Shown: piece after piece, positions 59,688-61,754 of the stretch
Layout of the letters: the number at the start of each line of letters is the position of its first letter
Numbering within the stretch: position 1 is the stretch's first letter
DNA from: Schmidtea nova
Taxonomy: Eukaryota
Assembly: GCA_044892505.1 (NCBI GenBank)
Contig: CM097883.1
Span: forward strand, 358,298,001 to 358,362,000
DNA length: 64,000 nucleotides
Direction: 5' to 3'
Translations under genes and position numbers: made by a program
The notes under the pieces: model-generated
Told to the model about the DNA's origin: nothing
Database searches by the model: none
Seen by the model: the letters and a program-made list of their open reading frames with translations, nothing else

Positions 59688-60960
59688 CTATACATATGTT
59701 TCTCTATACTCCATCCAGGGTCTTGAGGTCTGGGATTGACTCACTGAATGGTTTACCAGTTTCTCAAACTCTGTTATGACAATGAAAATGAGAATAATGA
59801 GAATCATAGTTGCGCAAATGATAATAATTAATAGAATCATACATGAGATTTCATTACTGTTTTTTGAAGACAATATAGTATTATCATGCGATAATATATG
59901 TTTGTTAGGAGAGCTGATACGTTGTCCATTTGAGAAAGGATAGGTTCATCAACAAGGGGTTTGGTGATTTCTCGGCTTGCTTTATATACTAGATTGTGAT
60001 TAGTTTTATTTAGTCTGTATGGATATTTGGTGTTTGCTGCTTCGTACAGGCCTTGGATAAGTTTATTCTCGACAAATGTTATCTGCTACAGATTTGAATA
60101 CAACATACGTCGATAATACTTGATTTTTATGGATACGAATTTCGATGTCGTTATTGATCGTGATTGTTGAAATGTTAAGATTTGAGATTCCTTTTTACCA
60201 TCTAGTATTGCTTGGAGCTTTCCATAATAATATAGAACGGTCTGTTGACTAGGGTTCATTTGTCGGGTAACTTTTATTGTATGATTGAAGATATGAAAGA
60301 TAACTCTATTTGTTTCGTTAATCAGTGTTATCGTTTCTTGGCTAGTATGAATTCTACCCATCACTGTTAGTTCCGTAGTTGTATAGAAATTTTTCATAAT
60401 AATGGATTAAAATATTATAAATCTGAAATAATTTTAAATTAACATAATTTATGAAGGGTTTTCTGCTGTTCAGAGTATCTATTGCATGGTTTTGGAAGAT
60501 CGTTTTTACCTGTTTGGATTCTTGGAGTTCCCAATATATGTTGATTCCATTTACCACAGGTTCGATTGATACGCGATTCTTCAATCTTTTTGTCCATATA
60601 TCTAGGTGTATAAGACTTTGTACGTTTGTAACGTTACCTTTAGAATCCAGCTGTGTTATCCTCCACGGGTAATTATAATTCATTGTTAATTGACGAGCGA
60701 CATGAATATTTTTATTGTAATTTAATTTTGTTGGGGGTTCGAAGTAATTTATTAAATTATCTATTTCTATTTCTTCTGCTCTTTCACAATGAAAAATCCA
60801 TTCTATCTGGGTACAGGTTGCATATATACTAATTTTTTCTAGTAATGGGATTCTTTTCGTTGCATACTATGGAAATTCTCGTATTGTATCTGTGCATACC
60901 ACATTTAGTAGCATTACCGTTGAGATCAGTAGCACTTTATTGATATAATTTAGTGGAGCT
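59688..60960 (-). pseudogene. Putative type I membrane glycoprotein downstream of and in frame with the integrase tail
   Basis: Signal-like KVLLISTVMLLNVVC, ectodomain with NVT/NET/NHT/NKT/NVS sequons, C-terminal TM ILLIIIICATMILIILIFIVI; broken by stops and frameshifts. Confidence 0.55.
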
Positions 60961-61754
60961 GGGTTTTTTGTGAATTTCTGTTTAATCATTATCTGTTTAT
61001 CTTTATTTGATTTTGATCTTAACGGATATCTTGTCATATTTTCCGTTGGTACCTTTTTAAACCGATTTACGTGAACAATTATTGTTCCCGCCTTTTTATT
61101 GTTTTGTGGGCGTAATTTTAGATTAGTCTGTGTAGCATCACACACTAAATATCGTCCTTTAATCAGTTTCCCAGTTTTGAAATCAAGTGCGACTCCTTGT
61201 AATTGTTCCATGATGTCCATGCCAATCAAACATTTGACCGGGCTTTTCCTCATCACTGATACCCAATGAGTTATTTCTTGGTTTCCAATATTTACTTTGA
61301 CTTCTAATTTTCAGACGATGTTTACTACGTTGTGTTTCGTTGACTTAATTATTTTTGTTGTTGGCTTTATTTCCGCTTTCTTTTGTCTAGTCAAAAAACT
61401 TTCCGATACTATGTTGTGACTTGAGCCTGAATCTAGTAACGCTTCAACTTTTCGCTTTTTAAACTGTATGTCTACGCGAGGTCGTTTTCCTCCCAACTCT
61501 ACTGTCATTAATGCGTAACTACATGGTAACCCAAGCATGTTCATTCTTTCAATTTCGGCACTTGATGGTTCAATCTTTTCTAATTCGACTTTTATCTCAT
61601 CAACTGGTTTCATTTCTCTCAATTTTTCACTTGGATATATAACAGCTGTTGGCATAAATGTCGGTGTGTACCATTTAGAAAGAGTATCAACTCCAGTTAG
61701 TTTTGGCATTGGTTCAAGCAAGAACCTGGATTCGGGTTCTATTCTACTTTTCAT
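60960..61754 (-). pseudogene. Retropepsin protease (ALLDSGS...CLIGMDIM) fused by deletion to an integrase GPY/F-like tail
   Basis: KVEALLDSGSSHNIVSE, one TGA at 61311, then LIGMD; then KGRYLV...NLKL....IVHVNRFKK. Confidence 0.8.

What the first reader, a model, noticed from the sequence alone, without database searches (positions are those of the whole stretch)
59688..61160. Second, unrelated membrane glycoprotein fused in frame to the integrase C-terminus: a two-envelope-protein retroelement
Seen: the GPY/F-like integrase tail continues without a frame change through a signal-like helix into a ~400-residue ectodomain with several N-glycosylation sequons and a C-terminal TM. It shows no resemblance to the upstream class III protein. 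Inference: a separate attachment protein plus a fusion protein, as in paramyxo- or herpesviruses, would be unusual for an LTR retrotransposon.
Basis: partly seen in the sequence, partly recalled or inferred. Interest (0 to 1): 0.7.

Follow-up and report, generated by a model that had tools for sequence, protein, structure and literature searches.

The report
Retrovirus-like element's second surface protein
This is a broken copy of an envelope-carrying retrotransposon whose intact relatives encode, after the integrase and in the same giant protein, a second predicted cell-surface protein, likely built from host-type fibronectin adhesion domains, that would work beside the fusion protein, likely helping particles attach to cells.

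Summary
Real in the family, broken in this copy. The window holds a decayed GAG-ENV-POL Ty3/gypsy element: class III env, protease, a ~2.9-kb deletion of RT/RNase H/integrase core, then integrase tail, signal-like helix, ectodomain, TM and tail (protein X), with two stops and two frameshifts. In the genome, 32 of 137 matches lie in natural open frames of 3,381-3,402 aa that run from Gag to X. X lies inside the LTRs and has dN/dS 0.16-0.21 (env 0.04-0.07). The same post-integrase signal-ectodomain-TM slot occurs in two more families of this genome, in 5 of 6 distant polyproteins and in 2 metagenome contigs: four pol lineages in all. A relative's ectodomain folds as FN3 (Foldseek E 7e-6; Z 8.7). 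For the window's own X, FN3 is only inferred (pLDDT 35). 9 of 13 families end in T-x-V, a PDZ-type motif. The element class is known (Burro-like and gB-type errantiviruses). I found no report of this second protein, and three look-ups in earlier scan notes found none. An attachment role is plausible but untested.

The parts
63810..63998 (-). C-terminal part of a Bcl-2-like domain (BH2-like) just before the env signal; the gag half of the element continues beyond the window in L021
   Evidence: (Pfam Bcl-2 E 0.0015 in an intact copy, below cut-off)
61853..63760 (-). Class III (gB/chuvirus-type) envelope glycoprotein with signal and TM (~62,065-62,010), broken by stops and frameshifts
   Evidence: PF24664 E 2.6e-23 and 2.8e-37; tblastn
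61158..61490 (-). Aspartic protease, one in-frame stop at 61,311-61,313
61155..61165 (-). Junction of a ~2.9-kb internal deletion that removed RT, RNase H and the integrase core
   Evidence: blastn against an intact copy jumps from L050:668 to L050:3601
61055..61160 (-). Integrase C-terminal GPY/F-type tail
   Evidence: alignment A1
60885..60944 (-). Internal signal-like hydrophobic helix (predicted start of protein X)
   Evidence: hydropathy 1.66-1.73 in 10 of 12 intact copies, just under the 1.6 cut-off in the other 2; conserved VLCxxA end
59850..60884 (-). Protein X ectodomain: three predicted beta-domains (FN3-like by inference) plus a variable stalk; broken in this copy at 60,867-69, ~60,360, 60,086-88 and ~59,907
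   Evidence: fold shown only for a relative
59775..59849 (-). Transmembrane helix of protein X
59688..59774 (-). Cytoplasmic tail of X ending E-T-Y-V (class I PDZ-binding-type motif, label recalled) and stop
57912..59339 (-). Separate downstream ORF with a DEDD-type exonuclease domain, broken here, inside the LTRs in intact copies
   Evidence: PF00929 E 1e-4 in paralog L026

Best explanation
The segment is a decayed copy of the last domain of a single ~3,400-residue Gag-Env-Pol polyprotein of a gypsy-type retroelement, predicted to be released as a type I membrane glycoprotein, likely of tandem FN3 fold, that would act as an adhesion or attachment partner of the class III fusogen. Shown: one open frame from Gag through env, PR, RT, RH and IN to signal, ectodomain, TM and tail; position inside the LTRs; purifying selection; the same slot in four pol lineages; an FN3 fold in one relative. 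Inferred: the second hydrophobic helix returns the chain to the ER lumen, so Pol forms a cytosolic loop tethered between the env TM and this signal; signal peptidase frees X; X is made 1:1 with Gag and Env; its T-x-V tail binds host PDZ scaffolds and gathers it at junctional or polarised membranes where particles would bud; its faster-evolving ectodomain contacts a host surface partner while Env fuses.
For: 32 of 137 matches in open frames of 3,381-3,402 aa. Domain order. 870-bp LTRs 99.9% identical, TG...CA with PBS and PPT, enclose X. dN/dS: X ectodomain 0.16-0.21, env 0.04-0.07, RT/IN 0.02-0.04, stalk 0.4-1.0 (three subfamily pairs, dS near saturation). Same signal-ectodomain-TM-tail slot in 5 of 6 distant polyproteins (the sixth lacks RT/IN), in 2 of 3 metagenome loci (the third was a spurious 19-aa match) and in two further families in G000; these form four pol lineages. 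Model of the L112 ectodomain: third domain pLDDT 73-89; Foldseek 73 hits at E<=0.001, all listed ones FN3-containing; VIA Z 8.7, rmsd 2.8 over 80 residues to a fibronectin FN3; Pfam Fn3_Dep-1_1st E 0.003 over 4-92/96 in L113. Families E/F vs host FN3 profile: score 24 against shuffled max 12.8. T-x-V ending in 9 of 13 families, three of four lineages, about 1% by chance each. Precedent for a variable receptor-binding protein beside a conserved fusogen: GN/GC (PMC9094657, passages).
Against: The window family's own X has no significant link to FN3 or to the other ectodomains: AF2 pLDDT 34.8, no Foldseek hit at E<=0.001, HHalign probability 0.2-0.4% and within or barely above shuffles, no fn3 in Pfam; ESM Atlas FN3 neighbours score only 0.81-0.85, a lead. 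So the slot may have been refilled by unrelated proteins. Sequon excess is weak. Nothing here shows virion incorporation, cleavage or binding. These elements also carry Bcl-2-like, ubiquitin-like, ankyrin and exonuclease cargo, which favours a host-modulating role. P0003, P0004 and P0006 lack the T-x-V end. Signal and TM calls rest on hydropathy only.
Confidence: 0.45

Rival explanations
1. X is a captured host receptor ectodomain used as a cell-surface decoy or modulator (ligand sink, junction or signalling interference, or block to re-entry by related elements) in the cell that expresses the element, and is not needed for entry.
For: FN3 tandems resemble cytokine-receptor, RPTP and contactin ectodomains. 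The elements carry other host-control cargo: Bcl-2-like, ubiquitin-like, ankyrin (PMC6431247 section 7). An unrelated BIR-bearing element's TM-less ORF also ends E-E-T-F-V, so the tail motif is not tied to entry.
Against: The slot was present in every env-pol relative examined that had an integrase, whereas other cargo (ankyrin, extra protease, Bcl-2) varies between lineages. No catalytic or signalling cytoplasmic domain.
Confidence: 0.33
2. The selected feature is topology: the signal and TM tether Pol/integrase to the membrane and steer assembly (PDZ tail), and the ectodomain is a folded spacer needed only for ER exit.
For: Ectodomain length varies from 140 to 390 aa, with one to three domains, and is unalignable between lineages, while signal, TM and tail motif persist.
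Against: dN/dS of about 0.2 across all three domains; 11 cysteines and three repeats kept at 21-23% identity between P0001/2 and L112/113.
Confidence: 0.17
3. The segment is an unrelated insertion or neutral passenger.
For: The window copy is broken and heavily deleted.
Against: Open frames in 32 of 137 matches, purifying selection, position inside LTRs, four pol lineages.
Confidence: 0.02

Closest known systems
GAG-ENV-POL errantiviruses with HSV/gB-type env of Platyhelminthes, Nematoda and Bryozoa (Chary and Hayashi, PMC13524379; includes Smed_errantivirus_1-6)
   Same: Ty3/gypsy pol, class III env between gag and pol, multicopy intact elements; listed spans of 14.5-18 kb for the Smed elements against 15.7 kb here
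   Different: The passages read and term searches (transmembrane, fibronectin, attachment, C-terminus, exonuclease) mention only chromodomains after integrase, no second membrane protein. Their figures and sequence data were not seen.
   Same: One polyprotein with Gag, ubiquitin-like, Bcl-2-like, in-frame env between gag and pol, then PR-RT-RH-IN
   Different: About half the size (15.7 kb, 3,400 aa against >30 kb, 4,873 aa); no MATH, BIR, ankyrin or dUTPase found in families A-C; section 7 mentions no post-integrase membrane protein.
Atlas virus, Belpaoviridae (PMC9094657)
   Same: LTR element with two membrane glycoproteins in one Gag-Pol-Env polyprotein, one a fusogen and one a more variable presumed receptor binder
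   Different: Atlas took GN-GC as one adjacent phlebovirus cassette (class II). Here a class III env and an FN3-type protein flank Pol and have separate origins.
Bdelloid Vesta/Juno LTR elements with extra ORF3 (PMC5408684)
   Same: DEDD exonuclease ORF after pol; small TM-bearing ORFs of unknown role
   Different: Those are separate ORF3s that replace env; here the membrane protein is in frame with integrase and coexists with env.

Membership tests
Ty3/gypsy LTR retrotransposon (Metaviridae) | PR-RT-RH-IN order with H2C2 and GPY/F integrase | tested here: met
   Pfam on L027 and L033
Ty3/gypsy LTR retrotransposon (Metaviridae) | LTRs TG...CA, PBS, PPT | tested here: met
   870-bp LTRs 99.9% identical in L045/L046 and 99.2% in L055/L056; LTR starts matched in L049-L052; no clear pair in 3 of 8 copies within the stretches fetched
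GAG-ENV-POL gB-type errantivirus | Class III (gB/chuvirus-like) env between gag and pol | tested here: met
   PF24664 up to 307 bits inside 3,393-3,401-aa frames
GAG-ENV-POL gB-type errantivirus | Identity with a named element (Smed_errantivirus_1-6) | not testable with these tools
   Only coordinates are given in the supplement
Burro | Ubiquitin-like and Bcl-2-like domains before an in-frame env | tested here: inconclusive
   Bcl-2 E 0.0015 and ubiquitin E 0.052, both below cut-off; PDB hits almost all Bcl-2 family but weak
Burro | Size >25-30 kb, ORF ~4,900-5,100 aa | tested here: not met
   15.7 kb, ~3,400 aa
Burro | MATH, BIR, ankyrin and dUTPase-like domains | tested here: not met
   None in Pfam scans of family A/B/C frames; ankyrins only in L112/L113
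FN3 type I membrane protein | Seven-strand FN3 sandwich in relatives (L112 group) | tested here: met
   (third domain only; first domain moderate, second unresolved)
FN3 type I membrane protein | FN3 fold in the window's own family (A-D) | tested here: inconclusive
   pLDDT 34.8, no significant hit; Atlas lead only
Paramyxovirus-type attachment protein (HN/H/G) | Type II topology with a beta-propeller head (recalled) | tested here: not met
   Signal first, TM near the C-terminus, i.e. type I; propeller fold not testable on the poor model
Virion attachment protein (functional class) | Incorporation in particles and receptor binding | not testable with these tools
   needs experiment

The most novel reading that the evidence does not exclude
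A widespread clade of invertebrate retrovirus-like gypsy elements has a two-component entry apparatus of split origin, a captured class III fusogen before Pol and a host-derived FN3 adhesion protein after integrase, both cut from one polyprotein; this would be the missing receptor-binding partner for gB-type retroelement envelopes.
Probability: 0.35. Interest if true: 0.85.

Novelty: new variant of a known kind. Interest (0 to 1): 0.62.

Why it matters
gB-type errantiviruses are widespread, and how they recognise target cells is open (PMC13524379 calls their transmission mechanism elusive). Herpesvirus gB needs partner glycoproteins (established knowledge). A conserved, faster-evolving FN3-type surface protein in the same polyprotein gives a concrete candidate partner and a testable handle on cell-to-cell spread of these elements. 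If it is a decoy instead, it adds a surface receptor mimic to the known host-control cargo of Burro-like elements.

Tried and rejected
Homolog searches with X itself found nothing (near lengths; longer). Pfam and PDB sequence searches with the X alignment: no informative hit; likewise for the P0001/P0002 ectodomain and for families E/F. AF2 on X gave a poor model, so its Foldseek list was not used as evidence; the wide VIA search of that model never ran. Weak host fn3 hits in long frames were host genes, not elements. The multicopy BIR elements (5 examined) lacked RT/IN in their own long frames and had no X homolog; no full-size Burro copy was found, so Burro itself is untested. Metagenome scan with the P0001/2 ectodomain and viral-contig scan with integrase: nothing. 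Sequencing runs: no RNA holder listed. The 1.84-billion-protein search was still queued when the session ended, and an extra dN/dS script for families D/E/F returned no answer. An RT-only tree with an outgroup was uninformative on the root. No complex prediction was run, because the X model is unreliable. Grohme 2018 was not held and Sacco 2022 appeared only as a reference. Earlier scan notes: one irrelevant phage note and two empty look-ups.

Full report
Observation. The finding lies on the minus strand. Six-frame translation and tblastn with intact paralogs give this order from 64,000 down: end of a Bcl-2-like domain, class III env (PF24664), aspartic protease, integrase tail, hydrophobic helix (60,944-60,885), ectodomain, TM (59,849-59,775), 28-aa tail, stop at 59,688-59,690, then a DEDD exonuclease ORF. 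The copy is decayed. A ~2.9-kb deletion near 61,160 removed RT, RNase H and the integrase core. X has stops at 60,867-69 and 60,086-88 and frameshifts near 60,360 and 59,907.

The family. A DNA search of the own genome gave 50 matches. A protein search with X gave 137, of which 32 lie in open frames of 3,381-3,402 aa (lower bounds, 135 of 3,503 candidates scored). These fall into subfamilies A, B and C, about 60-65% identical in X; the window belongs to a decayed subfamily D. Pfam on frames of family A/B copies gives Gag, zinc knuckles, env, PR, RT, RH, IN. Hydropathy shows env signal, env TM, post-integrase helix and final TM. In subfamily B, 870-bp LTRs 99.9% identical, with TG...CA ends, PBS and PPT, enclose X and the exonuclease ORF in a 15.7-kb element. 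Nei-Gojobori dN/dS between A, B and C is 0.16-0.21 for the X ectodomain, 0.04-0.07 for env, 0.02-0.04 for RT/IN and 0.4-1.0 for the stalk (dS is near saturation, so the values are rough). X is therefore a selected part of the element that changes several times faster than the fusogen. The host is likely a planarian, inferred from the AT-rich 1.25-Gb genome and Burro-like elements.

Relatives. A search with the env region among long proteins found 6 polyproteins at about 40% identity. Five continue after integrase through an extra protease copy into signal, ectodomain (214-379 aa), TM and tail; the sixth has no RT or integrase. An integrase scan of metagenomes gave 3 loci. Two (L112, L113) show the same slot, with ankyrin repeats before the signal and exonuclease ORFs after; their contigs begin in the protease region, so their env was not seen. 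The third was spurious. A Bcl-2 scan of the own genome revealed families E and F (38% identical to C over env-pol), where the signal follows integrase directly and the ectodomain is 140-182 aa. A pol tree places these in four well-supported lineages (unrooted).

What X is. The L112/L113 and P0001/P0002 ectodomains are homologous (E 1e-17 to 2e-23) and have three internal repeats. AF2 on L112 resolved the third repeat (pLDDT 73-89, seven strands). Foldseek gave 73 hits at E<=0.001, with all listed rows FN3-containing. VIA gave Z 8.7, rmsd 2.8 over 80 residues (the tool warns that Z near 8 is common, but nearly all rows are FN3). Pfam Fn3_Dep-1_1st covers that repeat in L113 at E 0.003. Families E/F and a pooled profile match host FN3 at the L-x-P-x-T-x-Y strand (score 24 against shuffled max 10-13, probability 32%; the pooled windows were chosen by that motif, so that test is partly circular). 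Against this: the window family's X folded poorly (pLDDT 34.8, mostly beta), had no Foldseek hit, and does not align significantly to FN3 or to the other ectodomains. Its FN3 reading rests on position, size, one degenerate motif and an ESM Atlas lead; I put it at about 70%. The tails end in T-x-V in 9 of 13 families (A, B, C, D, E, P0001, P0002, L112, L113). F ends T-L-C; P0003, P0004 and P0006 lack the motif. Chance is about 1% each, though related families are not independent. Sequon excess is weak.

Mechanism. One frame implies, by inference, that Gag is cytosolic, env is luminal, Pol is a cytosolic loop, and the post-integrase helix opens a second luminal domain that signal peptidase would free as a type I glycoprotein, made 1:1 with Gag and Env. 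I favour an adhesion or attachment role beside the fusogen, with the tail binding PDZ scaffolds (0.45), over a cell-surface decoy or modulator (0.33) or a mainly topological anchor (0.17). None of these is tested.

What is known. GAG-ENV-POL gB-type errantiviruses in flatworms are published (PMC13524379: I saw the outline, section 5 part 1, section 22, term passages, and the Platyhelminthes rows of supplement 1; a search of supplement 2 gave no rows; figures and deposited sequences unseen and may bear on novelty). Burro elements with ubiquitin-like, Bcl-2-like and in-frame env domains are published (PMC6431247: section 7 read whole; figure unseen). Atlas virus has GN-GC (PMC9094657: passages). 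DEDD ORFs in LTR elements are known (PMC5408684: passages). PMC11410931 was seen as passages only. Grohme 2018 and Sacco 2022 were not readable. Eight searches showed no listing describing a post-integrase FN3 membrane protein; the library lacks most subscription journals and Repbase.

Verdict. Observation partly confirmed, interpretation partly supported. The element is a new variant of a known kind. The apparently unreported part is a conserved second type I membrane protein behind integrase, FN3 in relatives. Interest 0.62.

Noticed in passing
window 63,810-63,998 (-); L049:7570-7998: Bcl-2-like domain with a BH2-like W-x-x-x-x-G-G-W motif directly before the env signal; a Bcl-2 scan of the genome returned mostly such element-borne copies in ~3,000-aa frames. 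Known from Burro.
   Followed up: partly
L049:5998-7500 (alignment A3): Two ubiquitin-like-looking repeats between the zinc knuckles and the Bcl-2-like domain (by eye; Pfam ubiquitin E 0.052 in 1 of 3).
   Followed up: partly
window 57,912-59,339 (-); L112, L113, L135, L139: A DEDD exonuclease ORF follows the polyprotein in families A-F and in L112/L113 (a second, weaker copy in L112), purifying selection in A-C.
   Followed up: partly
P0001-P0004, P0006, L112, L113: Extra aspartic protease copies between integrase and the internal signal; ankyrin repeats there in L112/L113; P0005 has env and about five protease copies but no RT or integrase.
   Followed up: no
L116-L117, L120-L121, L124-L125, L128-L129, L132-L133: Very high-copy element with a protease-bearing long ORF, a BIR-bearing 399-aa ORF, a 527-aa ORF ending E-E-T-F-V and a ~290-aa TM ORF, but no RT/IN seen: likely a non-autonomous Burro-like family.
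   Followed up: partly
window 2,912-4,998 (-): Second decayed fragment of the same element family (env end, protease, start of RT, jump to integrase).
   Followed up: no
window 45,720-49,387: LTR-like remnants related to the element's LTRs.
   Followed up: no
window 13,122-23,483 (-): Cluster that looks like a Polinton/Maverick (protein-primed DNA polymerase, integrase, capsid-like ORFs); by eye, labels recalled.
   Followed up: no
window 10,660-12,267 and 35,503-37,092 (-): Two near-identical Penelope-like RT ORFs; by eye.
   Followed up: no
window 40,226-44,930 (+), 42,916-43,689 (+), 56,557-57,616 (-): An unrelated decayed gypsy element interrupted by a mariner-like transposase, and a Tc1/IS630-like remnant that truncates the 3' end of the element studied; transposase labels by eye.
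   Followed up: no
window 52,950-55,900: Tandem duplication with a period of about 1.5 kb.
   Followed up: no
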